From NCBI GenBank assembly GCA_039799905.1, contig JBDLRP010000024.1, positions 1-64,000 on the forward strand: a stretch of DNA of 64,000 nucleotides, read 5' to 3'. Below the pieces are notes generated by a model. It saw only the letters and a list, made by a program, of their open reading frames with translations. It did not search any database and had not been told where the DNA came from. Positions 1 to 61,286 of the stretch are shown here, piece by piece (the first letter of the stretch is position 1; the number at the start of each line of letters is the position of its first letter). Both the position numbers and the translations under genes were made by a program. Source of the DNA: Pseudomonadota bacterium. Its GTDB lineage: Bacteria > Bdellovibrionota_B > Oligoflexia > Silvanigrellales > Silvanigrellaceae.

Positions 1-121
1 TAGGCACCTAAGGCAATGGATAATGCGTTGACTGGCCACGCAGTCCTGATTATGACCCCCCAGCGGCTTGGTCCGGCGTTCTTTGCGTAAACCGTCCGAA
101 AATCCGGCAGGAGGGCATGAC

Positions 122-1693
122 ATGAATCTCATCAGGCACATCGCTCTGTTGCTGATGCTCATTCTTCCTTGTGCTGCTTTCGCTCAGGATATTTCGTTCA
201 AGAACCGTCCGATTGTTTTTGGACTTGCGACGGCACCGGCGCACAGCGAGGACAACCTCAACGATTCGTGGCTCAACTTTGCGCAGAGCGGTGGCGTGGC
301 TGCATGGAAAAATGTCGATTTTCCAGAGCAGCGTCTGCGCTTTTGGAGCGAGCCCGAAACCGAACTCGACTGGGCACAGTCGACTGGAATCAAGACGCTG
401 CGAATCGGCCTCGATTGGGGTCGGCTTGTTCCCAATGCTCCTTCAAGCGTTGATTGCCCGACCGAGAATCCCTGCGCCGCGGGGATTCAAGACAAGCAGG
501 CCTTGCTTCGGTACAAACAAATTGTGAGGATGATCCGCGGACGCGGAATTGAACCCATCATCACTCTGTTTCATCATTCATTGCCGGCATGGGCGATTGA
601 AAAAGGCGGCTGGGCGAATCCGGAAGTCGCCGATTTGTTCGTTCGGTTTTCTCAAGACGTCGTGCGCGAATTCTCTCATCTAGTGGACGAGTGGATCACC
701 TTCAACGAGCCTACGGTTTTTGCGCTTTTGTCGGATGTTGCTGGAATCTGGCCTCCGGGTGGCAAGCAGCGTTTGGGTGGGCTTATTTCTGTTCCTTTGG
801 TGGCTCGCGGCGCTTATTGGTTGTCGCTCGAGCATATGACCCGCGCGCACAACCGAATTTACGAAAGTATTCACTCGATCGACACCGCACGTGCATCAGC
901 AACAAACCCTTTTGCACACGGACAACCTGCGCGTGTCGGTATGGCTCACAACATCAGCTATAACAACGGTGCACGCTGGATGGACTGGCCATCGGCGAAA
1001 TACTTTGACGCCATCTCCAAGTATGTTTTCACCGACAAAATTGCCGGCAAACTCGACTTCCTTGGAATCAATTACTACGGTCAGGAAGTGGTAAAAGGGC
1101 TGGGTGCCGCGATTGTGGATCGCGCGGAATACAGCGAGTCGGGCCGAGGCGTGTATCCGGCTGGACTGGCGTTGCTTTTGCTCGATTATCACAATCGCTA
1201 CAACAAGCAGAAAATCTCTCGCAAAGGGAATAAAAAAGAACTCAAGTTTGTGGTCACTGAAAACGGAATCTCAGATTCGACCGACGTCATTCGCGGCGCC
1301 TATCTGGTGGAACACCTTGCGGCCGTTGATGCTGCCATGAGTGCGGGTGTGCCCGTGGACGGATATATTTTCTGGACACTTTCCGACAACTGGGAATGGG
1401 CCGATGGGTATTGCCCTAAGTTCGGTTTGCTGTCGGTCAATCGGGGGCACGGACTGAGCAGAACACCGCGTGCGAGTTATGAACTCTTCAAAGAAATCGT
1501 GCAGACTCGTGAAATCTCGGCTGCAGTCCGCGAACAGCAGTGGCAGCGTTACCTCAGCCAGACGGGATTGCCGCGCCCTCAGTGCCGTGCCGAGAATGGC
1601 CGCGATTCCCTCGACGAGCCCCGCTTCGACATGAAGTTCCGCGGGATTGACTTTCGGTTCAAACCCGAACAGCTGCGTCTTCCTCAGCAGTAA
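122..1693 (+). CDS. Secreted glycoside hydrolase family 1, SFR2-like (galactolipid galactosyltransferase-like)
   Basis: GH1 catalytic motifs TFNEP and VTENG, plus DNWEWADGY. SFR2-type segments FGLATAPAHSED, RLRFWSEP, YYGQE, EYSESGRGVYP. ATG at 122 after a GGAGGG RBS gives a Sec-type signal peptide (MNLIRHIALLLMLILPCAAFA). Confidence 0.85.
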   Translation: MNLIRHIALLLMLILPCAAFAQDISFKNRPIVFGLATAPAHSEDNLNDSWLNFAQSGGVAAWKNVDFPEQRLRFWSEPETELDWAQSTGIKTLRIGLDWGRLVPNAPSSVDCPTENPCAAGIQDKQALLRYKQIVRMIRGRGIEPIITLFHHSLPAWAIEKGGWANPEVADLFVRFSQDVVREFSHLVDEWITFNEPTVFALLSDVAGIWPPGGKQRLGGLISVPLVARGAYWLSLEHMTRAHNRIYESIHSIDTARASATNPFAHGQPARVGMAHNISYNNGARWMDWPSAKYFDAISKYVFTDKIAGKLDFLGINYYGQEVVKGLGAAIVDRAEYSESGRGVYPAGLALLLLDYHNRYNKQKISRKGNKKELKFVVTENGISDSTDVIRGAYLVEHLAAVDAAMSAGVPVDGYIFWTLSDNWEWADGYCPKFGLLSVNRGHGLSRTPRASYELFKEIVQTREISAAVREQQWQRYLSQTGLPRPQCRAENGRDSLDEPRFDMKFRGIDFRFKPEQLRLPQQ

Positions 1694-3625: not shown

Positions 3626-4951
3626 TCAGCGTTTTCCGCACACGACGCTGCCGGGACTGCCGTAAACTTTGAGCTTCTTGCATTTGCAGTCGTTGACGCC
3701 CTTGATGGTGACTGCATTTGAGTTGCCCGAGAACATCACCACGCCGCTCTTGAATCGTCCGCTGTCTGAGAAGTTGGCGTTGGTTTTGTTGTTGTTTCCA
3801 CGCTCATAGACGTACAGTCCGTTGACCCTTGTTTTTCCAGCGTTGATTGTGACGGTTGCACCGCCCGACGCAAAAACACACAGGCCGCGGAATTTCTCTC
3901 CTTCAGGCTTTACGGTCAGCGAGCCTCCTACGGCATACACAACGAGTACGGAATCTTTGTTTAGGTTTCCCTTGCCCTCACCGGCAATCACAAGCTTTTT
4001 CTTGTCCACTTTCATCGCCTGCGCGCAGGCTTCTCTGAAGGCCGCTGCGTCATCGCCGACTGCTATGCGCGGAAGTGATGATTCAAAGTCACCGTCGTCG
4101 GAGAAGTCGCGCTCATCGTCATCGTCCTCTCGCTCTTCCTCTTCACTCTTTTTGCCCGAACGCCCCTTCTTCTCTTCCTCATCCCTTTCGTGCGCGCGTT
4201 TTGCGGCAGCTTTTGCTGCTGCCTCGGCTTGAGTCTTTGCAGCGTCAGCAGACGCCTTCGCTGCAGCCGCGTCTGCGGTCGCTTTGGCCTGCGCATCGGC
4301 AGCTGATTTCGCCGCAGCCGCAGCTGCAGCAGCTGCTGCGGCTGCGGCTTGATTTTGTGCGTTTGTCACTGCCGTCGCTGCCTCCAAGGCCGCCGCGTCA
4401 GCTGCTGCTTTCGCTCCGGCGTCGCCAGAGGCGGCCGCTGCCGCAGCCTCGTCAGCCGCTGCCTTTGCTGCAGCCGCATCTGCAAGTGCCTTTTGAGCCG
4501 CCGCATCGGCGGCGGCCTTGGCAGCCGCGTCTGCTGCCGCTTGTACTGCGGCATCAGCAGCAGCCTTTGCGGCTGCGTCGGCCGCGTCCTTTGCAGCAGC
4601 ATCAGCTTCAGCCTTCGCTGCGGCTGCGTTGGCCTCTGCCTCGGTCACAGGATCAGGCGCAGACCCGGCCGATTCAGGCGGAAACAGTGTTTCGAGAATT
4701 GCCTTTTCCTCGGCATCTGCCTTCATTTTTTCTTGTTCGCTCATTCCGCTCTCGACAAGGACGCTCGTAGCATCTGCCGATTCGAGTGCTTTTTTGATGG
4801 ATTTTGTTTTGTCGGTTGCGCTGCCGGAAAGGCTGTATGTTGCACTTGCGTAATTCGGACTGCTGAACTGCGTCACCTGATTTCCGCATGCGAGCATGAA
4901 CAACGAAGAAGTTCCCATGAGCACGCTGTTCGTTGGTAGAATTCGTTTCAT
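3626..4951 (-). CDS. Ala-rich lipoprotein with putative C-terminal beta-solenoid domain
   Basis: Lipobox-like FMLA-C, long (K/Q)AAADAAA repeats, an acidic tract, and a Gly/Asn/Val-rich Cys-containing C-terminus. Confidence 0.7.
   Translation of the reverse strand: MKRILPTNSVLMGTSSLFMLACGNQVTQFSSPNYASATYSLSGSATDKTKSIKKALESADATSVLVESGMSEQEKMKADAEEKAILETLFPPESAGSAPDPVTEAEANAAAAKAEADAAAKDAADAAAKAAADAAVQAAADAAAKAAADAAAQKALADAAAAKAAADEAAAAAASGDAGAKAAADAAALEAATAVTNAQNQAAAAAAAAAAAAAKSAADAQAKATADAAAAKASADAAKTQAEAAAKAAAKRAHERDEEEKKGRSGKKSEEEEREDDDDERDFSDDGDFESSLPRIAVGDDAAAFREACAQAMKVDKKKLVIAGEGKGNLNKDSVLVVYAVGGSLTVKPEGEKFRGLCVFASGGATVTINAGKTRVNGLYVYERGNNNKTNANFSDSGRFKSGVVMFSGNSNAVTIKGVNDCKCKKLKVYGSPGSVVCGKR
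4200..4645 (-). repeat. Degenerate coding repeat, about 8-aa period (KAAADAAA)
   Basis: KAEADAAA KDAADAAA KAAADAAV QAAADAAA KAAADAAA... in the translation; GCN-rich DNA. Confidence 0.8.
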
Positions 4952-5109
4952 GATTCTGGCCCTCAATATCGTCTAGAATATTTTGCGGCAGACCTTGGCC
5001 ACAAATTGAGTTCGAATTTTTAAAATGTATAAGAATCAGAAATAATTGGATTAAATATCACCAGCGAACGATGCGGATTAAAACCGGCAGAATTGGCACA
5101 TTCTCCGGA

Positions 5110-31179: not shown

Positions 31180-32160
31180 CTAGAACAGCCTCTCACAACG
31201 TGCTTTGAGAGCCCGCGAGCGCTTGAGCACTTCTCTGTAGCGTTCGGCGATGGCCGATGGCTGAGCGTCTGAAAAAATGAAGGAATGCTGCCCTTGGCTC
31301 GACGATGCGAAAGTGTCGAAAAGCCCTTCCTTTTGGCACCCCAAAAGATCGGCAAATGCACGCAGGTTTTCGCCGTCGCCGCGCGCCGACTCCATCCGCA
31401 GTGAGTGCAGGTTGGTGTCGATGAAGATTTCCTGTTCTGCCTGCATTTGTTCTTCGTCGACGTCCACGCAATTGGACGTACCCGTGGTGATGACAATCGA
31501 CTGCGGAATGATCAGGTCATTGACGATTGAGGCAAGCCATTGCTCAGAGCGCACGTTGTTCTTGAAGATCATCGAACCCAAGCCGCAACCGGCCATGCCA
31601 TAGGAGGGCTGGACGTAGCGTTCCGACATTCTGCCTGCAGGAGTCACAGGCGGTTGCGAGGGCACTCCCTGCGGGAGTTGCGGAGCCGTTTGTGGCGTCA
31701 CCTGCAAGGGTTGTTGGATTGAATTGTCAGAAGGAAGTTGCGGTTGGCTGGAGGGTGCAGCTCCCTGCGACGGCACCTGAATCGGCGGTTCAAATGACAT
31801 CTGAGTCGGGACTTGCACGGGAACCGGCGGCGGAACAACGACAGGCTGTTCTGTGACGGGTGTTCCCTGTTGTGGTTGTACCTGAGAAGGGATTTGCACC
31901 GGAGCCCCCTGCATTGGTTGCGCCTGAGAAGGGATTTGCACCGGAGCCCCCTGCATTGGTTGCGCTTGCGAAGGGATTTGCACTGGAGCATTTTGTTGCT
32001 GCGGCACTTGGTTTTGTTGTTCGGTTTTAGGAATTGGCCTGCCGAGGCCGCCCATCGAACGACTCGTGCGTGCCTGTGCCCATGCGGCGGACTCACCGGC
32101 ACACAACAGGGCAAAAACCGAAACCGACGTCATTTTGATTTTATTCATGTCAGACCTCAT
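31180..32160 (-). CDS. DUF3015-like exported protein with Pro/Gln-rich repeat linker
   Basis: YGMAGCGLGS, ITTGTSNC, ESARGDGENL..LLGC. Confidence 0.75.
   Translation of the reverse strand: MRSDMNKIKMTSVSVFALLCAGESAAWAQARTSRSMGGLGRPIPKTEQQNQVPQQQNAPVQIPSQAQPMQGAPVQIPSQAQPMQGAPVQIPSQVQPQQGTPVTEQPVVVPPPVPVQVPTQMSFEPPIQVPSQGAAPSSQPQLPSDNSIQQPLQVTPQTAPQLPQGVPSQPPVTPAGRMSERYVQPSYGMAGCGLGSMIFKNNVRSEQWLASIVNDLIIPQSIVITTGTSNCVDVDEEQMQAEQEIFIDTNLHSLRMESARGDGENLRAFADLLGCQKEGLFDTFASSSQGQHSFIFSDAQPSAIAERYREVLKRSRALKARCERLF
31881..31989. repeat. 42-bp tandem repeat (about 2.6 copies; APVQIPSQAQPMQG)
   Basis: Unit cctgagaagggatttgcaccggagccccctgcattggttgcg at 31881 and 31923, with a diverged partial copy at 31965. 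Confidence 0.9.
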
Positions 32161-32729
32161 CGGGCACCTGCACGGCCGGTTGGCAGTGCGGCATATTTAC
32201 ATGAGGATTGCAGTTGTTGGTCGGCGGAAATCTTTTCTTTCAAAGATTGCAGCGCTGCCATGGCTCCGGGCTGTGAAAAAATACTGCTGTAGTTCTGCTG
32301 CGCGAGGCGTGCGAAGCGTTGTTGTTCTGAGTCTTCGCAACCGAGAGTCTTGGCCAGACCTGCGATTGTATCGCCTCGTCCCTGCGCGGCATCGCGCGCG
32401 ATGTCGCGGTAGTTGTTGGCGATAAAATGTTCCTGCTCGAGCATGACCTGACGCGAGTTTTCGGACTGACAGTTGGAGGTTCCGCTCGAGATCATGAACA
32501 CCTGATTCCACGCGAAGCCGTTGATGAACGAAGTGATAAAATGCGGGCCATTGGGGAGCAGGATGGAACCCAAGCCGCAACCTGCCATACCATAGCGGCG
32601 TGTTGGCGTGGGCGGATTGACGACTGACCAGCCGCCGGTGTCGGGTCCCTGCTGTGCATGTGCCTGCGGAATCGCCAAAGCAATTCCCAGCACGCAGAGT
32701 AAAAGAGTTCGGCTCAATGGGGAACGCAT
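32157..32729 (-). CDS. DUF3015-like exported protein
   Basis: Signal peptide, YGMAGCGLGS, ISSGTSNC, DAAQGRGDTI..TLGC; AGGAGAG RBS; 4-bp overlap with its paralogue. Confidence 0.75.
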   Translation of the reverse strand: MRSPLSRTLLLCVLGIALAIPQAHAQQGPDTGGWSVVNPPTPTRRYGMAGCGLGSILLPNGPHFITSFINGFAWNQVFMISSGTSNCQSENSRQVMLEQEHFIANNYRDIARDAAQGRGDTIAGLAKTLGCEDSEQQRFARLAQQNYSSIFSQPGAMAALQSLKEKISADQQLQSSCKYAALPTGRAGAR

Positions 32730-32931
32730 GACGCTCTCTCCTTTTTTGAACACCTTGATCTTAACATCTGCCACTGAAATCACGTAGTCAGGACCCCCGG
32801 AGGTGTCAGGCGCCCGCCGTAGTCTGAAAATTTTCCTGAAAACTACTACGATACCTGAGTGTCGGCGTCTTATTGAATTCGTTGTGAGGCCGTTCCGACC
32901 TCTTGTTGAACTCTCAAATTTTGGATGAGAA

Positions 32932-33657
32932 ATGTTTTGTCCGGATTCCACTCCTGCTGCCGAGTGTGCCTCTTATCGTCCAGGCGATTGGCGACAAGAT
33001 ATGTACACTATTCCGCTCGAAGCGTTGTCTGTTGCAGTCGTGAGCTCGATAAAGCCACCTGCGGAGCCGCGCTGGCCATTTTCAGGTGAAAAAACCGATA
33101 AGGAACGCCAACCGACACGTCATCCGGGCTTGTTTGCCGCAGGACTTGGCTTGGGAGTTTCGCTGCCGCTCACGGCCGCACTTGTTGCCGATGATCCAGA
33201 CTTTCCGGTTTTGACTCACGTGCGTGGATTGATACACACACATCTTTGGACTGAATTCGCGACTTCTTCGGCAAAGAATTACTTTGGGCGGCAGAGGCCG
33301 TTTTACGACACTGAACTGCGCAACGGCAGAGCTGGTATCGACGATCGTCGCTCGTTTTTCAGCGGTCATTCAGCCCATTCATTTGCATTCACCGGTTATC
33401 TTACGCAGCTTGCGCTCAATGAACTGAAAGACAGTGCGCAGGCATGGTTCTTTGTAACACTCCTCAATGGTGTTGCCGTGTGGGTCGGCGCCTCACGGGC
33501 AGTCGATCATCAGCACAACTGGAGCGACGTGCTCACGGGCGCCGTTGTTGGAGGCGGGACTGGTTACTTGATATATCATCAGGTCGCACGGAGCAGCGGT
33601 CTCTCAGTTCAGTTTTCTCCAGACGGAAAAAAAGTCACCCTCAGTGCGGCGCTTTGA
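32932..33657 (+). CDS. PAP2 family membrane phosphatase
   Basis: KNYFGRQRP, SFFSGHS, SRAVDHQHNWSDV. Start uncertain (32932 or 33001). Confidence 0.85.
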   Translation: MFCPDSTPAAECASYRPGDWRQDMYTIPLEALSVAVVSSIKPPAEPRWPFSGEKTDKERQPTRHPGLFAAGLGLGVSLPLTAALVADDPDFPVLTHVRGLIHTHLWTEFATSSAKNYFGRQRPFYDTELRNGRAGIDDRRSFFSGHSAHSFAFTGYLTQLALNELKDSAQAWFFVTLLNGVAVWVGASRAVDHQHNWSDVLTGAVVGGGTGYLIYHQVARSSGLSVQFSPDGKKVTLSAAL

Positions 33658-44082: not shown

Positions 44083-47000
44083 TCATCGGGCGCGCATATC
44101 AAAGACCCCGTCCCATTCTTCGGGAGGTGGTGGGTTCTGTTTTAACCTCACTGCCCTGTCGAGATACAATGCAGCAACTTTATCTGCCGGATTCTCGTCG
44201 AGGTTCTTTTTCCATCCGTCGATTGCGGTATCCCATTGGGCGGCGTGAAAGGCCCTCATCGCACTCTCGTGGCGCTCCAACGTCTTGAGTTTCAACTCTC
44301 GGACGTGGGGATGATCGGCATTGTAAATTTCAACGATGCTCAAAGCGCGTGTGAATCCTGCAGGGCGGACACGGCCGAGCGAGCGGAAGTCAAAGTGTTT
44401 TGGATTCTGAGTGAGAATCATCGAATCCTGACTGGTGATCAGTCCGACGGAAAAGACTTTGGTGATTCCCTCAAGGCGAGAAGCGAGATTGACGCTGTCG
44501 GAGATGACCGTACCTTCCATGCGCTGGTCGTTTCCGAGTGTACCGAGCATCAGCGGTCCATGGTGTACCCCGATCCCGATATTGATGGGTGGCCGGAACG
44601 AAGTCTTGCGCTGATTGTTGAAATTCTCCAACTCGCGCTGCAGGTCGATGGCTGCAAGTAGCGCGTCATCGGGACGGTTCGGAAAAAGCGCCATCACGGC
44701 GTCGCCGATATACTTGTCGATGAAGCCGCAGTTTTTTTGGATGAGCGGGTTGACGGTCGCAAAATAGCTATTGAGGAAATCAAAGTTTTCTTTTGGCGTC
44801 ATAGTCTCTGAGATTTTTGAAAATTGCCGTATGTCGAGAAACAATACGGTCATTTCCCGCAGCACCTGATCACCCAGCCGCACATCGATGATTGATTCGC
44901 GTCCCAAAAGCTGAAGCAGATCCTGCGGAATAAATCTGGAATACGCGCCGTGAATTTTGCTGATGTGCAGATGGTTGCGCATACGTGCGAGCAGCTCGGA
45001 CTGACTGAACGGCTTCATCAGGAAGTCATTGGCACCGCTGCCGAAGCAGGTGATAAGGTCGCTGATTTGGTTTTTTGCGGTGAGGATAATCACAGGTAGG
45101 TCGGTAACCTGATGGGTCTTGCGGATCTCGGCCAGCACCTCCAGCCCGGACATGCGCGGCATCATAAGGTCGAGCAGGACGAGATCCGGTTTGAATTGTT
45201 GCATGGCCCTCAGTGCGGAGGGGCCATCTTCACAGATGACAAGTTGATAGTTTTCGGAACGCAATTGGTTTTGCAGCACCTGACGGTTGATTGGCTCGTC
45301 ATCAACAACCAGAATTTTGTATCCCTTTTGATCATCCATGCGGGTGTGAATGGAAGGGGATGTTTCGCCGGCCGGAGTTTCGCTTTCCCACCAAACTGAG
45401 TTTTGTTCAAGCATTCGCGGGCGCTGCATTTTTTGCTGTATGCCGGCATCGATAACTTCGCCTTTGCTCGCTGCGGCAATGCTTTGTATGGACAGCGGAA
45501 TGGTGAATGAAAACTGCGAGCCTACCTCGGGTTGTGATTCAACCTGAATGTGTCCGCCATGCAGTTCAACAAGTTGCTTGGTGATCGTCAAGCCGAGTCC
45601 TGTTCCGCCGTAAGCGCGATTGATGTGTCCGTCGGCTTGTTCGAAGGCGTTGAAGATTCTCTGTTTCTTGGCGGGATCGATACCGATTCCCGTGTCGGCT
45701 ACCGTGATGCGCATGAAGCGTCCTTCCACTTCAGCTGAAACACTGACATGGCCGGTGTGCGTAAACTTGATTGCGTTTGCAATGAGGTTTTGGAGGATTT
45801 GTTGAATCCTTGCCTCATCGGCTTCCAGCATCGGCAAATTCGGTTCGACGTTGTTGTGCAGGGTGAGCGCTTTGCCGCCCACGAGCGGCTGGTTGAGTGC
45901 AAGTAGGACCTGCACCATTGGCCGGAGTTCGACGTCGCTGAGCCGAAGCTTCAAATTACGCTGCTTGATTTGAGAAAAATCAAGCAAATCGTTGACGAGA
46001 TTTGTCAGCCTGCGGCCTGAGGCGGATATCAGACCAAGATTCTCCCTGAGACGTGAATTGAGGCTTCCTTCACTGCCATTGAGCAACGTTTCAGCGAGAC
46101 CGACGATGCCGTGTAACGGCGTACGCAGCTCATGTGAAGTGTTGGCAAGAAAGTCGTCTTTCAGTTTGTCAGCACGCCTGAGCTCCGAAACCACACTGAG
46201 GTTGTCGAGCGTCAGACAAAGCGTCTGTTCGGTAATCTTGATGAAATGCATCTCTTCGCGGGTCAGGAACATTTCCTTGTCGCAAGAAATTGAAACCATT
46301 CCGAGCCAGCGCAGATCTTGGAACAAGTTGAGCGTCAGCACACCACCTATTGTAGACATCGGCGGTTGTTCATCGGGAATAGGGGGAACACCTGATTTTA
46401 AAACAGGTGCAGGAATGACGGGCTGATCCGTAGGATGACTCAAATGCGCCGTGTATTGCAGAACCCTGCGCGGCTCATGGCTTGGAAGAATGATTTCAAC
46501 ATCTATCTCGCGCAGTGATTCGAGTTCTTTTTGCAGAATATTAAGAGCTGCAAACACCGCTGAGACATGCTCATGAGAGCTTGCCAGCTGCCGGCTTCCC
46601 AGCATCAGCTGTTCGACGCGTCTGCGCAGTGTGCGTGCGTACTCGCCAATTTTTTGTGTGACACTGCCGATACCCAGCATGGCGGAAAGAAGAAGCACGG
46701 GCACAAGCAGAGCCTGTCGCCAATCCAGAGGGTCGTACAGGTTTGCACTTTTGCCTGCGCCCGAAAGATCACGCCAAGAAGCGAGGGCCATAAGAAACAC
46801 CACACCACTGACAAGCAGTCCTCGCAGTGTGAAAAAATGCGTCGGGTTGAAGAGCGTCTGTCCTGAGTCAAGGTCTTGCAGAGAATCCGACCGCGGTGCA
46901 GGCTTTTTTCTGAAATGCAGATGAATGGAATAAGCGGACACAATGATTGTCGAGACTGCGATGATCAGGTCGGCCGCGCGCTCGCTGCGGAATATGAACA

Positions 47001-48081
47001 ACGATTTTTCGCTGTAGAAAAACACCATGGCGGCTGCCAGCAGTGCAGAGTTCATCAGTGCAAATGCATATCTGGCCTTGCGAGATGCAAAGCGGGAGCT
47101 TGGCTCGATAATCAGCTCATAAATGACCCGCGCCTGCCAGAAGAGCACAATCAGCAGAATGAGTGCAGTCAGGACTCTCAACTGATTCACATTCAGCGTC
47201 AGACCGAGCAGACTGACTTTTACACCTTGAAATGTGGATATTGAGTGTGCGAAGAATGCTTTTATACCTTTGAGAAATGCAAAGATGCTGATGTGGAAAA
47301 GAATCTTGCTACTGTCCAGAATGACTGCCATTGCGGCGACGAGTACAGGAAGAGTGAGTGACAACAGAGTCAGCGGGATGGAGGAGTCGACAAGTTTCTG
47401 CAGTAATCCTGTGTATGCAGTCGTGTTGCCGCTCACCATCAAAGCAACAGGAAGAGTGATGGGGCCGAAGGCGCTTGGAAAAGCGTATTTATTTGCATTG
47501 TAATCGAGACTGATGGAGCCGCTGGCAAGAATGTCTGTGATGGCGAAGGTGCTCACCGCATTTGTTCCATTGCCCGCGTGTATTTGCTTGTTGTCTTGGT
47601 TTGTGTAGATGCGCAGCGTTGACTGATACGTTCTCGGCACAACCAGACTCAGATAAGTTGCATGTTTGCTGATGCTGTTGATCCAGTCGATGTCAGGTAT
47701 TTTGAAGCGGTAGACAAGACGCGCAGAGTTGGGCAACAGCGTCTGCCCGTTTTTCTTGAATTCATTCTCAAGGCCGGCAAACATGTTGGTTGTCCGCGGC
47801 AGGGTGACCGTCGTTTTGGTAGCCTGCAAGGGCATGCAGTCTTCGAGAACATCTTTCGGTGTTTTGCAGTGAAACGGTGAAGCCTGCCACTCCTGCAGGA
47901 GAATCAGAACTTTTTCATTTTTCATCCGCTCGATTTGTGCATTGATGTCATAACTGCGCTGGAGGCCAAGCATGAACAAAATAAAAAGGACTGTGCTGAT
48001 ACAAAGCAACAGCACGGGAAGAACATTATAAATGGAAATTTTCTTAAAATATTTCTTTAAAAATGTTTGAAAATATCTCAC
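44083..48081 (-). CDS. Membrane hybrid sensor: histidine kinase - receiver - class III adenylate cyclase
   Basis: Multiple TMs; NTSHELRTPL; NAIKFT, DTGIGI, GGTGLGL; REC VVDDEP..LDLMMP..KPF; cyclase FLDIRQFS, DKYIGDAVMA, EGTVISDSVNLASRLE. GTG start after GGAGG. Confidence 0.9.
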   Translation of the reverse strand: MRYFQTFLKKYFKKISIYNVLPVLLLCISTVLFILFMLGLQRSYDINAQIERMKNEKVLILLQEWQASPFHCKTPKDVLEDCMPLQATKTTVTLPRTTNMFAGLENEFKKNGQTLLPNSARLVYRFKIPDIDWINSISKHATYLSLVVPRTYQSTLRIYTNQDNKQIHAGNGTNAVSTFAITDILASGSISLDYNANKYAFPSAFGPITLPVALMVSGNTTAYTGLLQKLVDSSIPLTLLSLTLPVLVAAMAVILDSSKILFHISIFAFLKGIKAFFAHSISTFQGVKVSLLGLTLNVNQLRVLTALILLIVLFWQARVIYELIIEPSSRFASRKARYAFALMNSALLAAAMVFFYSEKSLFIFRSERAADLIIAVSTIIVSAYSIHLHFRKKPAPRSDSLQDLDSGQTLFNPTHFFTLRGLLVSGVVFLMALASWRDLSGAGKSANLYDPLDWRQALLVPVLLLSAMLGIGSVTQKIGEYARTLRRRVEQLMLGSRQLASSHEHVSAVFAALNILQKELESLREIDVEIILPSHEPRRVLQYTAHLSHPTDQPVIPAPVLKSGVPPIPDEQPPMSTIGGVLTLNLFQDLRWLGMVSISCDKEMFLTREEMHFIKITEQTLCLTLDNLSVVSELRRADKLKDDFLANTSHELRTPLHGIVGLAETLLNGSEGSLNSRLRENLGLISASGRRLTNLVNDLLDFSQIKQRNLKLRLSDVELRPMVQVLLALNQPLVGGKALTLHNNVEPNLPMLEADEARIQQILQNLIANAIKFTHTGHVSVSAEVEGRFMRITVADTGIGIDPAKKQRIFNAFEQADGHINRAYGGTGLGLTITKQLVELHGGHIQVESQPEVGSQFSFTIPLSIQSIAAASKGEVIDAGIQQKMQRPRMLEQNSVWWESETPAGETSPSIHTRMDDQKGYKILVVDDEPINRQVLQNQLRSENYQLVICEDGPSALRAMQQFKPDLVLLDLMMPRMSGLEVLAEIRKTHQVTDLPVIILTAKNQISDLITCFGSGANDFLMKPFSQSELLARMRNHLHISKIHGAYSRFIPQDLLQLLGRESIIDVRLGDQVLREMTVLFLDIRQFSKISETMTPKENFDFLNSYFATVNPLIQKNCGFIDKYIGDAVMALFPNRPDDALLAAIDLQRELENFNNQRKTSFRPPINIGIGVHHGPLMLGTLGNDQRMEGTVISDSVNLASRLEGITKVFSVGLITSQDSMILTQNPKHFDFRSLGRVRPAGFTRALSIVEIYNADHPHVRELKLKTLERHESAMRAFHAAQWDTAIDGWKKNLDENPADKVAALYLDRAVRLKQNPPPPEEWDGVFDMRAR

Positions 48082-48170
48082 ACTTGCGCCTCCGCAGCGA
48101 CTCGATCTTCGCCCTCCGGTGAGGCTTTGCAAAGAGCCAAAATGATGACCTGCACATCAGGCTGTCGGAT

Positions 48171-60125: not shown

Positions 60126-61286
60126 ATGTCTGCTTTTTTTGTGTGCGGTAACACGCTGATAGTAATGGCTCTGTTGGTAGGATGTGCGGATAAACAAAAA
60201 GTAGCCCCGCGCGCCGTTGAGTCGGGTAAAAATGTCGCCGCTGCGGATGGTAGGGAGCAAACACAGGAAGCGCCGCCGCAAGAGCAGGCTCCCGAGAAGG
60301 CTTTGTGGACCGTCTCCAACACACCCATCAAACACGAGTGCCAACCGCCGGCTGAAATGGGTTTCTATCCATCAAAGGGCCTTTCGCAAGAAAACAGATA
60401 TATGTTGTCTCGATTCGCTGCGATTGGCGGGCCGGCGTTTAAGTTCGAAGAAGTTTTTTTGCAGGGATTTTTCAAGACTGCGGAATTCTCGGGTCTGAAG
60501 GTCTTCGAGGACAAGGGCAAAGGCGTACAGGGATTCGTTGCGACGTCCGAGAAAGTCAATCTGGTTGTATTTCGCGGAACGCACAGCGCCGGCGGGTTGG
60601 TCACGGACATGAATTTTTTGTTGTCAAGAGCCTCGTTTGTCAACATGCAGGGCGGGGTGCACCGCGGATTCAAGGCAGCATTTGATGCGGTTAAACCTGC
60701 AATCAACGCAGCTCTCGACGTTCAAAATCGGCCCGACATTCCAACTTTCTACATCGGCCACAGTTTGGGCGGAGCACTGGCAATGCTCGCAGCAACCGAT
60801 GGTCTTGCAGGAAAAGTCAAAGTTGAGGGAGTTGTCACGCTCGGCCAGCCGCGCACTGGAAACTCAGCATTCAGCGAAAGCTTTGCCAAAGCGTTGGGTG
60901 AAAAATACTTCCGCTATGTGCATGCCAGAGATCTGGTGCCGCATCTTCCGCCGAGCACGGGTGCCGCCGACTCTGCTGCCTCGGCATTCAGTCAGAACAA
61001 TTTGCTCAAATTGGCTGTTCAGGGGGCTGGACTGCTTGGCTTCAGTCATGTGGGACAACTCGTTCACCTCGACAAGACTGGTTTGTTGTTGAGTCCTCCT
61101 GCGTCAGATGCGGCTTGGGACTCGAGTTATTGGGTATCCAATGCTGAAACGGTGCGGCAAACAGTGACTTCACTACCGAGCTTGGCTGGCAGTGCTGCGT
61201 CGCTGCAGTCGCTAGCGCAAAATAACCAGATCGCAGACCACGATCTGGAAAAGTACCTCTGTCAGATACTCAAGAACTCAAAATAA
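60126..61286 (+). CDS. Lipase class 3 family lipoprotein
   Basis: LVG-C lipobox, VVFRGT, VHRGF, GHSLGGA, GQPRTGN, DLVPHLPP, DH. Confidence 0.88.
   Translation: MSAFFVCGNTLIVMALLVGCADKQKVAPRAVESGKNVAAADGREQTQEAPPQEQAPEKALWTVSNTPIKHECQPPAEMGFYPSKGLSQENRYMLSRFAAIGGPAFKFEEVFLQGFFKTAEFSGLKVFEDKGKGVQGFVATSEKVNLVVFRGTHSAGGLVTDMNFLLSRASFVNMQGGVHRGFKAAFDAVKPAINAALDVQNRPDIPTFYIGHSLGGALAMLAATDGLAGKVKVEGVVTLGQPRTGNSAFSESFAKALGEKYFRYVHARDLVPHLPPSTGAADSAASAFSQNNLLKLAVQGAGLLGFSHVGQLVHLDKTGLLLSPPASDAAWDSSYWVSNAETVRQTVTSLPSLAGSAASLQSLAQNNQIADHDLEKYLCQILKNSK

What the first reader, a model, noticed from the sequence alone, without database searches (positions are those of the whole stretch)
122..1693. Bacterial secreted enzyme resembling plant chloroplast SFR2 galactolipid galactosyltransferase
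Seen: besides the generic GH1 motifs, the protein has segments I recognise from plant SFR2 along its whole length (FGLATAPAHxED..WLxFA, VAAW..RLxFWS.P, TLFHHSLP.WA, LDFLGINYYGQE, EYSESGRGVYP.GL, ENGISDSTDVIR, SDNWEWADGY.PKFGL, C-terminal LD.P..DFRF). It also has a Sec-type signal peptide. Known: SFR2 is a transglycosylating GH1 that turns MGDG into oligogalactolipids plus DAG during freezing stress in plants. Inference: this could be a bacterial glycolipid-remodelling enzyme or an exoenzyme acting on algal or cyanobacterial galactolipids. It may also bear on the evolutionary origin of SFR2 or a transfer involving it.
Basis: partly seen in the sequence, partly recalled or inferred. Interest (0 to 1): 0.8.

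Follow-up and report, generated by a model that had tools for sequence, protein, structure and literature searches.

The report
Exported bacterial relative of plant SFR2
A freshwater bacterium of the Silvanigrellaceae group encodes a family-1 glycosidase with a signal-peptide-like start that is a true relative of the plant freezing-tolerance enzyme SFR2; it likely works on sugar-lipids outside the cytoplasm, and it bears on where the plant enzyme came from.

Summary
Window 122-1693 (+) is an intact 523-aa gene with a GGAGG ribosome site and a Sec-type signal peptide (predicted cut AFA|QD).

Named plant SFR2/GGGT proteins match at 408-421 bits and 43-45% identity. The best solved GH1 reaches 146 bits. 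NCBI's beta-glucosidase model scores 183 against a cut-off of 478.

In three trees the protein sits inside a strongly supported SFR2-like clade, apart from ordinary GH1. That clade holds green plants and algae, haptophytes, and bacteria labelled mostly Bdellovibrionota. In the best tree the window's Silvanigrellaceae group is sister to green-lineage SFR2 (94/90). AU tests do not reject all bacteria forming one clade (p 0.14, 0.16), so the direction of transfer stays open.

The protein keeps both catalytic glutamates, the sugar-binding residues and the SFR2-type C-terminal extension. It lacks Loop A, which papers citing Roston 2014 report as needed for galactosyltransferase activity. A plant homologue with a much shorter Loop A made no TGDG.

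Function is inferred. My best reading (0.4) is an exported enzyme that cleaves or transfers beta-glycosyl head groups of lipids. A soluble beta-glycosidase is nearly as likely.

The scan noted the same thing earlier on another genome (e1-9574955).

The parts
110..114 (+). Ribosome-binding site GGAGG, 7 nt before the start codon
   Evidence: Read from the sequence
122..1693 (+). Gene for the SFR2-like GH1 protein P0001 (523 aa; stop codon at 1691-1693)
   Evidence: Pfam PF00232 171 bits. Plant SFR2 hits 408-421 bits.
122..184 (+). Predicted Sec signal peptide, residues 1-21 (MNLIRHIALLLMLILPCAAFA, cut before QD). No canonical lipobox, because Pro precedes Cys17.
   Evidence: Read from the sequence. 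Helix 2-14 with lower pLDDT in the model. A hydrophobic N-terminal segment was flagged in 56 of 66 bacterial clade members and in 0 of 6 CPR outgroup GH1 by my hydropathy rule.
206..1516 (+). GH1 (beta/alpha)8 catalytic domain, about residues 29-465
   Evidence: Pfam and NCBIfam matches. AlphaFold model pLDDT 94.6, pTM 0.93. Foldseek matches to archaeal and thermophile GH1 at TMq 0.64-0.69.
242..253 (+). H41-S-E43-D44 motif. His replaces the Gln of ordinary GH1 at this position.
   Evidence: Position 41 is H in the window protein and in all 24 distinct eukaryote rows, and Q in all 13 outgroup rows.
455..475 (+). C112-x5-C118 insert (SVDCPTENPCAAG), a likely disulfide-bonded hairpin of the exported bacterial subclade
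   Evidence: Cysteine positions and insert sequences. The disulfide is an inference.
704..712 (+). N195-E196-P197, the acid/base glutamate motif (TFNEP)
   Evidence: Aligns with the NEP motif of Sulfolobus beta-glycosidase 1uwq. Invariant in all 105 rows.
1256..1267 (+). T379-E380-N381-G382, the nucleophile glutamate motif (TENG)
   Evidence: Aligns with TENG of 1uwq. Invariant in all 105 rows.
1373..1414 (+). W418...E425-W426...C431 (WTLSDNWEWADGYC), the glycone-binding Glu-Trp pair followed by Cys431
   Evidence: W418, E425 and W426 are invariant in all 105 rows. C431 covaries with C488.
1517..1690 (+). SFR2-type C-terminal extension, residues 466-523 (..RPQC488RAENGRDSLDEPRFDMKFRGIDFRF..), absent from ordinary GH1
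   Evidence: Aligned with plant SFR2. R485 and R489 are nearly invariant across 79 clade members. Modelled with block pLDDT 92-98 up to about residue 520, 52 for the last three residues. It overlaps the region that PMC11155703 reports as needed for SFR2 transferase activity.

Best explanation
The gene encodes a family-1 glycosidase of the SFR2-like subfamily with a signal-peptide-like N-terminus, and it is predicted to act outside the cytoplasm on beta-galactosyl or beta-glucosyl head groups of diacylglycerol lipids, most likely lipids from algae or cyanobacteria. Shown directly: the gene is intact, it has a Sec-type N-terminus, both catalytic glutamates (E196 acid/base, E380 nucleophile) and the sugar-binding residues of retaining GH1 enzymes are present, the SFR2-type C-terminal extension is present, and the protein sits in the SFR2-like clade. 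Inferred: the signal peptide is cut and the protein folds in the periplasm or beyond, probably with disulfides C112-C118 and C431-C488. E380 would attack the anomeric carbon of a beta-glycosyl lipid, diacylglycerol would leave, and the sugar-enzyme intermediate would be resolved by water (hydrolysis) or by another sugar hydroxyl (transglycosylation, as in SFR2). Because Loop A is missing, I expect hydrolysis or only limited transfer rather than the processive oligogalactolipid synthesis of plant SFR2. The substrate class is the weakest step.
For: SFR2/GGGT is the only characterised member I found named in this clade, and the window protein is 43-45% identical to it along its whole length. The SFR2-like clade has 100/100* support, and the window group is sister to green-lineage SFR2 at 94/90. 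Many clade-specific residues are invariant or over 90% conserved across 79 bacterial and eukaryotic members (E43, D44, D48, W50, W210, P211, E336-Y337-S338, R342, D385, D388, R485, R489), which suggests a shared constraint beyond the generic GH1 site. The C-terminal extension is shared with SFR2, where a C-terminal region is needed for transferase activity (PMC11155703 passages; mapping). The C431/C488 pair covaries with G/W or G/Y. This ties the extension to the loop that follows the glycone-binding E425-W426. An export signal is near-universal in the bacterial clade (56 of 66 flagged). By eye about nine of these look like lipoproteins, which would be tethered to a membrane. The plant enzyme is membrane-anchored too. 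One homologue (P0131) is fused to an LCAT-type lipid acyltransferase/lipase domain. PF06925 (MGDG synthase) was not found in the window's genome, which is 93.8% complete, so any galactolipid substrate would be foreign.
Against: Loop A is absent: 4 residues here, as in ordinary GH1, against 77-210 in clade I land plants. Loop A is reported as crucial for GGGT activity (Roston 2014, as cited in PMC11525325, and PMC11155703). MpGGGT2, a clade II plant homologue with a much shorter Loop A, made no TGDG in leaves. No lipid-related gene is a conserved neighbour. Synteny exists only within the Silvanigrellaceae group and involves an M3 peptidase and a LysR regulator. GH1 substrate specificity often changes at this level of identity (established knowledge). 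The GH1-LCAT fusion is one unnamed contig; 0 of the 5 other hits to its LCAT part carry GH1. The genome has a galT-galK-GH42 operon, so soluble galactosides are clearly used. No assay exists for any bacterial member. No paper was found in searches or 81.
Confidence: 0.4

Rival explanations
1. It is an exported beta-glucosidase or beta-galactosidase for soluble substrates. It would trim beta-linked oligosaccharides or small glycosides in the periplasm or outside the cell, and the sugars would feed central metabolism.
For: All generic GH1 glycone residues are present. The nearest solved folds are broad-specificity beta-glycosidases. The genome carries a galT-galK-GH42 operon. In the window's GTDB phylum, 24 of 29 genomes with the SFR2-like gene also have galT, against 19 of 102 without it. 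These genomes are related, so this is only suggestive. The Loop-A-poor plant homologue MpGGGT2 made no TGDG.
Against: The strongly conserved clade-specific motifs and the C-terminal extension shared with a lipid-acting enzyme are not explained. The gene is not linked to any sugar transporter or catabolic gene. The galactose operon has its own GH42 enzyme.
Confidence: 0.3
2. It remodels the cell's own envelope glycoconjugates, for example a glycolipid, periplasmic glucans or a lipopolysaccharide sugar, as a housekeeping or stress enzyme. This would parallel SFR2's role in membrane remodelling.
For: The gene sits among core chromosomal genes, and its stretch has the same G+C (0.535) as its surroundings. 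It is kept in 11 of 12 other genomes of the window's genus. Plant SFR2 acts on the organelle's own membrane (PMC11525325).
Against: No MGDG-synthase domain was found in the genome. No glycosyltransferase or envelope gene is a conserved neighbour. The gene is absent from 13 of 13 genomes of a sister genus in the same family, several of them closed, so it is not an essential envelope function.
Confidence: 0.15
3. It is a true processive galactolipid:galactolipid galactosyltransferase like plant SFR2, making DGDG, TGDG and diacylglycerol from MGDG.
For: The same evidence of kinship as above. JGI's automatic annotation already names some homologues in this family 'galactolipid galactosyltransferase' (P0056, P0067, P0094, P0106). 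One of these, P0106, shares its cluster with a protein on a 311,490-bp contig. L024, a Bacteriovoracaceae MAG, has a contig of that same length, so the two are probably the same record.
Against: Loop A is missing and is reported as required. The second half of the required C-terminal region (GHYEMEGLQDPL in plants) has no counterpart. The organism appears to lack its own MGDG synthase.
Confidence: 0.1

Closest known systems
Plant SFR2 / GGGT (galactolipid:galactolipid galactosyltransferase; clade I of land plants, e.g. Arabidopsis SFR2, Marchantia MpGGGT1)
   Same: GH1 fold. Both catalytic glutamates. The His-x-Glu-Asp motif. EYSESGR, SD.TD..R and WT.SDNWEWADGY. The C-terminal extension with RP.CR...LDEP...D(W/F)RF. 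An N-terminal hydrophobic segment. 43-45% identity.
   Different: No Loop A: 4 residues against 77-210. A predicted cleavable Sec signal in place of an outer-envelope anchor. An extra C-x5-C insert. The Cys431/Cys488 pair is kept, whereas seed plants have Gly/Tyr or Gly/Phe. The protein ends before the plant GHYEMEGLQDPL stretch. Bacterial host. Activity unknown.
Clade II SFR2-like proteins of bryophytes and ferns (e.g. MpGGGT2) and SFR2-like proteins of green algae (Pyramimonas, Pycnococcus, Tetraselmis)
   Same: Short or absent Loop A, 4-8 residues. The Cys431/Cys488 pair is kept. Same motifs.
   Different: Eukaryotic and not exported by a Sec signal. MpGGGT2 was weakly cytoplasmic and made no TGDG (PMC11525325). 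Their function is also unknown.
Archaeal and thermophile GH1 beta-glycosidases (Sulfolobus solfataricus LacS 1uwq, Acidilobus 4ha3, Fervidobacterium 6kdc)
   Same: The nearest solved structures: TMq 0.67-0.69 at 25-26% identity, 132-133 bits. Same catalytic motifs.
   Different: Cytoplasmic. Gln at the position of H41. No C-terminal extension. They lie outside the SFR2-like clade.

Membership tests
Glycoside hydrolase family 1 (Pfam PF00232) | Match to the family profile above the curated cut-off | tested here: met
   170.8 bits against a cut-off of 22.6
Glycoside hydrolase family 1 (Pfam PF00232) | Acid/base Glu in NEP and nucleophile Glu in ENG, plus the glycone residues Tyr, Trp and Glu-Trp | tested here: met
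   N195, E196, Y319, E380, W418, E425 and W426 are present and invariant in 105 aligned rows. They align with LacS.
Ordinary bacterial beta-glucosidase BGL (NCBIfam TIGR03356) and BgaS (NF041004) equivalogs | Score above the curated equivalog cut-off | tested here: not met
   183.5 against 478.5, and 177.7 against 475
SFR2-like GH1 subfamily (sequence clade) | Placement inside the clade that holds named SFR2/GGGT, apart from other GH1 | tested here: met
   The clade has 100* support (96 rows), 100/100* (72 rows) and 100* (45 rows). The window group is sister to green-lineage SFR2 at 94/90.
SFR2 / GGGT (EC 2.4.1.184) in the functional sense | Loop A, a long disordered insert after the first conserved block, reported as crucial for transferase activity | tested here: not met
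   4 residues at this site, as in outgroup GH1. Clade I land plants have 77-210. The requirement is taken from papers citing Roston 2014. The primary paper was not held.
SFR2 / GGGT (EC 2.4.1.184) in the functional sense | C-terminal region required for activity (AtSFR2 A550-L580, GrSFR2 A579-L609) | tested here: inconclusive
   In Ziziphus SFR2, residues 579-609 read AGGLDEP..RDWRFGHYEMEGLQDPL. The window protein keeps the first half (SLDEP..IDFRF) and ends soon after. The mapping rests on numbering in another species.
SFR2 / GGGT (EC 2.4.1.184) in the functional sense | Hydrophobic patch next to the active site (Roston 2014) | not tested
   The residues are not given in any paper I could read (one search found only PMC11525325).
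SFR2 / GGGT (EC 2.4.1.184) in the functional sense | Anchoring in the chloroplast outer envelope with the enzyme facing the cytosol | tested here: not met
   The host is a bacterium. The N-terminus looks like a cleavable Sec signal with A-F-A|Q.
SFR2 / GGGT (EC 2.4.1.184) in the functional sense | Transfer of galactose from MGDG to a galactolipid, giving beta-linked DGDG/TGDG plus diacylglycerol | not testable with these tools
   This needs an enzyme assay.

The most novel reading that the evidence does not exclude
Plant SFR2, the enzyme that lets chloroplasts survive freezing, descends from an exported glycosidase of Bdellovibrionota-type bacteria that entered the green lineage by gene transfer before chlorophytes and streptophytes split. 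The Silvanigrellaceae clade that holds this gene is its closest living bacterial relative. The bacterial signal peptide is the forerunner of the outer-envelope anchor, and Loop A was added later in land plants, turning a lipid-head-group glycosidase into a processive transferase. The bacterial enzyme itself attacks galactolipids of phototrophs.
Probability: 0.25. Interest if true: 0.8.

Novelty: new variant of a known kind. Interest (0 to 1): 0.62.

Why it matters
SFR2 has no solved structure. No chain in the PDB copy scores above 146 bits against this protein. How a GH1 hydrolase became a lipid transferase is known only from modelling and mutants.

This bacterial homologue is compact, lacks Loop A and gives a confident predicted fold (pLDDT 94.6). 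It would be a practical model for crystallography and for testing what Loop A and the C-terminal extension add.

The distribution of the family points to a gene transfer between bacteria and photosynthetic eukaryotes behind an important plant stress trait. In my sample the family occurs in green plants and algae, haptophytes, and bacteria labelled mostly Bdellovibrionota.

If the enzyme does act on galactolipids, which by general knowledge are the main membrane lipids of chloroplasts and cyanobacteria, it would also name a player in their turnover in fresh water. All 80 genome records that the scan returned are uncultured assemblies (79 titled MAG), so the function can only be reached by heterologous expression.

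Tried and rejected
**Gene neighbourhood.** I clustered all ORFs of 80 related loci plus the window and ran Pfam on the recurrent neighbours. Only the 11 Silvanigrellaceae-group loci share neighbours: an M3 oligopeptidase downstream, a LysR regulator, and upstream an unknown 590-aa protein, chorismate synthase and a response-regulator diguanylate cyclase. Nothing relates to lipids or sugars. The apparent ABC-transporter cluster is just family likeness.

**Endogenous galactolipid synthesis.** PF06925 was not found in the own genome. Other glycolipid synthase families were not searched.

**Direction of transfer.** The ML trees place eukaryotes inside the bacterial radiation. AU tests do not reject all bacteria as one clade: delta lnL 21.4, p 0.139, 72 rows, LG+G4; delta lnL 8.15, p 0.162, 45 rows, PMSF. 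The PMSF test on 72 rows did not finish.

**Fused forms as a clue.** Pfam on 20 longer homologues gave one GH1+LCAT protein (P0131) and one with FG-GAP repeats. A search with the LCAT part found no second fusion; 1 of 6 hits was fused, and that was the query itself.

**C-terminal add-on of the neighbouring bacterial clade.** This 160-265-aa add-on (L014, L015, L017) folds as a beta-sandwich (pLDDT 81.8). It has no PDB match (best E 0.03, TM 0.21 or less). The window protein lacks this domain.

**Promoter and terminator scan of 1-2000.** No promoter-like site was found, and no terminator lies between the gene and the peptidase gene.

**Literature.** No paper links SFR2 to bacteria, Bdellovibrio or gene transfer. 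The hits for SFR2 plus 'horizontal gene transfer' were irrelevant. Roston 2014, Barnes 2023 and Thorlby 2004 are not held. The library misses most subscription journals, so an earlier statement on bacterial SFR2 relatives may exist there.

**Lipoprotein reading of Cys17.** Rejected. Pro precedes the Cys, and the orthologues in L004, L005, L009 and L008 have no aligned Cys.
Full report
**The sequence.** Window 122-1693 (+) is one open frame of 523 codons plus a stop. A GGAGG lies 7 nt before the ATG. A longer TTG-started frame from base 68 exists but has no such site. The first 21 residues (MNLIRHIALLLMLILPCAAFA, then QD) have a charged start, a 14-residue hydrophobic core and an Ala-x-Ala cut site. 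I read this from the sequence, since no signal-peptide predictor was on hand.

**Family assignment.**
- Pfam places the protein in GH1 at 171 bits.
- It fails NCBI's curated models for ordinary beta-glucosidase (183.5 against 478.5) and BgaS (177.7 against 475).
- The best of 193 matching solved chains reaches only 146 bits.
- A search of 5.8 billion proteins gave 735 hits at the E-value threshold, of which the best 120 were listed.
- Close orthologues (66-77% identity) carry labels such as Proteobacteria, Pseudomonadota or Betaproteobacteria MAG.
- From about 50% identity downward there are several hundred relatives. Among them are named plant SFR2/GGGT proteins from Marchantia, Ziziphus, Hibiscus, Catharanthus and Ceratopteris, at 408-421 bits and 43-45% identity.
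- An alignment with these shows conservation along the whole length. This includes a C-terminal extension (RP.CR...LDEP...D[WF]RF) that ordinary GH1 enzymes lack.

**The organism.**
- The window is bases 1-64000 of contig 24 of a 3.38-Mb assembly that is 93.8% complete. This gene is the only GH1 in it.
- The rest of the window is ordinary chromosome: ClpX, Lon, UvrB, RelA/SpoT, CTP synthase, a class II (Asp/Lys/Asn-type) tRNA synthetase and an RND efflux pump. G+C is even across it.
- A scan of one genome per prokaryote species returned 80 loci. The 11 closest (67-92% identity) are freshwater MAGs labelled Silvanigrellaceae, Silvanigrella sp., Oligoflexia or generic 'Pseudomonadota'. Ten of these 11 share the window's downstream M3 peptidase gene, and most share the LysR gene.
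- Contig numbers show that several of these loci are the 'same genus' genomes.
- Cultured Silvanigrella and Fluviispira are treated as non-predatory members of Bdellovibrionota (PMC11656739, passages).

**Distribution.**
- Of the 74 loci that carry an SFR2-like gene (L003-L076), submitters label 44 Bdellovibrionota, 17 with generic Pseudomonadota or Proteobacteria names, 4 Elusimicrobiota, 1 each Spirochaetota, Bacteroidota and Myxococcota, and 6 are unclassified. The scan kept only the best 80 of 106 relatives, and its search patterns were SFR2-specific.
- All 80 records are uncultured assemblies; 79 are titled MAG and L017 is an unnamed 'bacterium isolate'.
- In the window's GTDB phylum, 29 of 131 genomes have the gene at E of 1e-70 or lower. 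That is 11 of the 12 other genomes of the window's genus, and 0 of 13 in a sister genus that includes closed genomes.
- Among eukaryotes the family occurs in land plants, the green algae Pyramimonas, Pycnococcus and Tetraselmis, and the haptophytes Emiliania and Gephyrocapsa.

**Trees.** I built three trees.
- Tree 1 had 96 rows with a quick search. I left out five fragments (L013, L039, L044, L060, L066) and three near-duplicates (L006, L007, L011).
- Tree 2 had 72 rows chosen from these plus more eukaryotes, with a careful search under LG+C20+F+G4 PMSF.
- Tree 3 had 45 rows.
- In all three, the SFR2-like proteins form one clade with full support and a long stem, apart from candidate-phyla-radiation GH1 and other ordinary GH1.
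- In tree 2 the green-lineage proteins are one clade (100/97*). Its sister is the window's Silvanigrellaceae clade plus one Spirochaetia MAG (94/90, not starred). The pair is nested within bacterial grades, one of which is strongly supported (99/98*, 44 rows).
- In trees 1 and 3 the same lineages share a weakly supported group (84 and 82) without resolved order.
- Haptophytes branch separately.
- AU tests do not reject a tree with all bacteria held together (p 0.139; p 0.162).
- Kinship is therefore firm and a transfer between domains is very likely, but its direction is not settled.

**What is kept from SFR2 and what differs.**
- N195, E196, Y319, E380, W418, E425 and W426 are invariant in all 105 aligned rows. 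They align with the catalytic motifs of Sulfolobus beta-glycosidase.
- Position 41 is His in the window protein and in all 24 eukaryote rows. It is Gln in all 13 outgroup rows and in many Bacteriovoracaceae.
- Loop A is absent. There are 4 residues at this site in every bacterial row but five (6-21 residues), as in ordinary GH1. Clade I land plants have 77-210, and clade II plants and green algae have 4-8.
- According to papers that cite Roston 2014 (the primary paper was not held), Loop A and a C-terminal region (AtSFR2 550-580) are needed for transferase activity (PMC11525325 section 14; PMC11155703 passages).
- The clade II protein MpGGGT2 made no TGDG.
- By numbering in Ziziphus SFR2, the required C-terminal region reads AGGLDEP..RDWRFGHYEMEGLQDPL. 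The window protein keeps the first half and ends soon after.

**Export and cysteines.**
- By a simple hydropathy rule, 56 of 66 bacterial clade members from loci have an N-terminal signal-like segment. Five more fall just under my threshold.
- A four-member subclade (L043, L053, L061, L065) and one N-terminally fused form (L069) have none. Nor do any of the 6 outgroup GH1.
- About nine, all in the part of the tree nearest the plants, show a lipoprotein-type Cys by eye.
- Cys431 (in DGYCPK) and Cys488 (in RPQCR) covary. Of 67 bacterial rows, 61 are C/C.
- The pair is G/W in the four signal-less proteins and in the Spirochaetia protein, which has a long hydrophobic N-terminal segment that looks like a membrane anchor. 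It is G/Y or G/F in seed plants and G/C in clade I liverworts.
- This pattern suggests that the two positions touch. It implies that the C-terminal extension packs on the loop just after the glycone-binding Glu-Trp, probably through a disulfide in exported forms. This is an inference, because model coordinates could not be read.
- A second pair, C112 and C118, lies in an insert specific to the window's part of the tree.
- The AlphaFold model is confident (pLDDT 94.6, pTM 0.93), including the extension. Its nearest solved folds are archaeal and thermophile GH1 at 22-26% identity.

**Function.**
- Nothing in the neighbourhood helps.
- The genome lacks the MGDG-synthase domain. It has a galT-galK-GH42 operon elsewhere.
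- The SFR2-like gene co-occurs with galT in the phylum, in 24 of 29 genomes against 19 of 102. These genomes are kin, so this may only mark sugar-using lineages.
- One unnamed homologue is fused to an LCAT-type lipid enzyme, but it is a single contig.
- I therefore commit, at 0.4, to an exported retaining enzyme acting on beta-glycosyl lipid head groups, with hydrolysis more likely than processive transfer.
- The rivals are a soluble-substrate glycosidase (0.3), remodelling of the cell's own envelope (0.15) and a true GGGT (0.1).

**Novelty.**
- JGI's pipeline already labels some homologues in this family 'galactolipid galactosyltransferase'.
- I found no paper on bacterial SFR2 relatives in five searches. 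The library lacks most subscription journals.
- I rate the finding as a new variant of a known kind.

Noticed in passing
G000 contig 41, locus L085:8316-13024 (+): A galT - galK - GH42 beta-galactosidase operon in the window's genome. It shows that the organism can use galactosides, independently of the SFR2-like gene.
   Followed up: partly
protein P0131 (unnamed Logan contig, 943 aa): An SFR2-like GH1 domain fused to an LCAT/PDAT-type lipid acyltransferase-lipase domain (PF02450), with a signal-like N-terminus. No second fusion was found, so it may be an assembly or gene-call artefact.
   Followed up: partly
L014:7417-7977, L017:2659-3144, L015:7573-8367: The bacterial clade next to the window's carries a 160-265-aa C-terminal add-on with two invariant cysteines. 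It is modelled as a beta-sandwich (pLDDT 81.8) and has no Pfam or PDB match.
   Followed up: partly
proteins P0262, P0263 (Gephyrocapsa, Emiliania): Haptophytes have an SFR2-like protein that branches apart from the green-lineage clade. This may mark a second transfer or be a long-branch effect.
   Followed up: no
loci L043, L053, L061, L065 (Bacteriovoracaceae-labelled MAGs and one 'Proteobacteria' MAG): This subclade of SFR2-like proteins has no signal peptide and has Gly/Trp in place of the Cys431/Cys488 pair. It branches first in the careful tree, and these are probably cytoplasmic forms.
   Followed up: partly
window 3626-4966 (-): A 446-aa protein with a hydrophobic N-terminal stretch, a very long Ala/Lys/Asp/Glu-rich low-complexity middle and a Cys-containing C-terminal part. 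No Pfam match.
   Followed up: no
window 60126-61286 (+): A class 3 lipase (PF01764), 58 kb from the GH1 gene. No linkage is implied.
   Followed up: no
window 31180-32951 (-): Two adjacent paralogous genes, each with a DUF3015 domain.
   Followed up: no
window 44083-48132 (-): A 1349-aa hybrid histidine kinase with a receiver domain and a C-terminal adenylate/guanylate cyclase domain.
   Followed up: no
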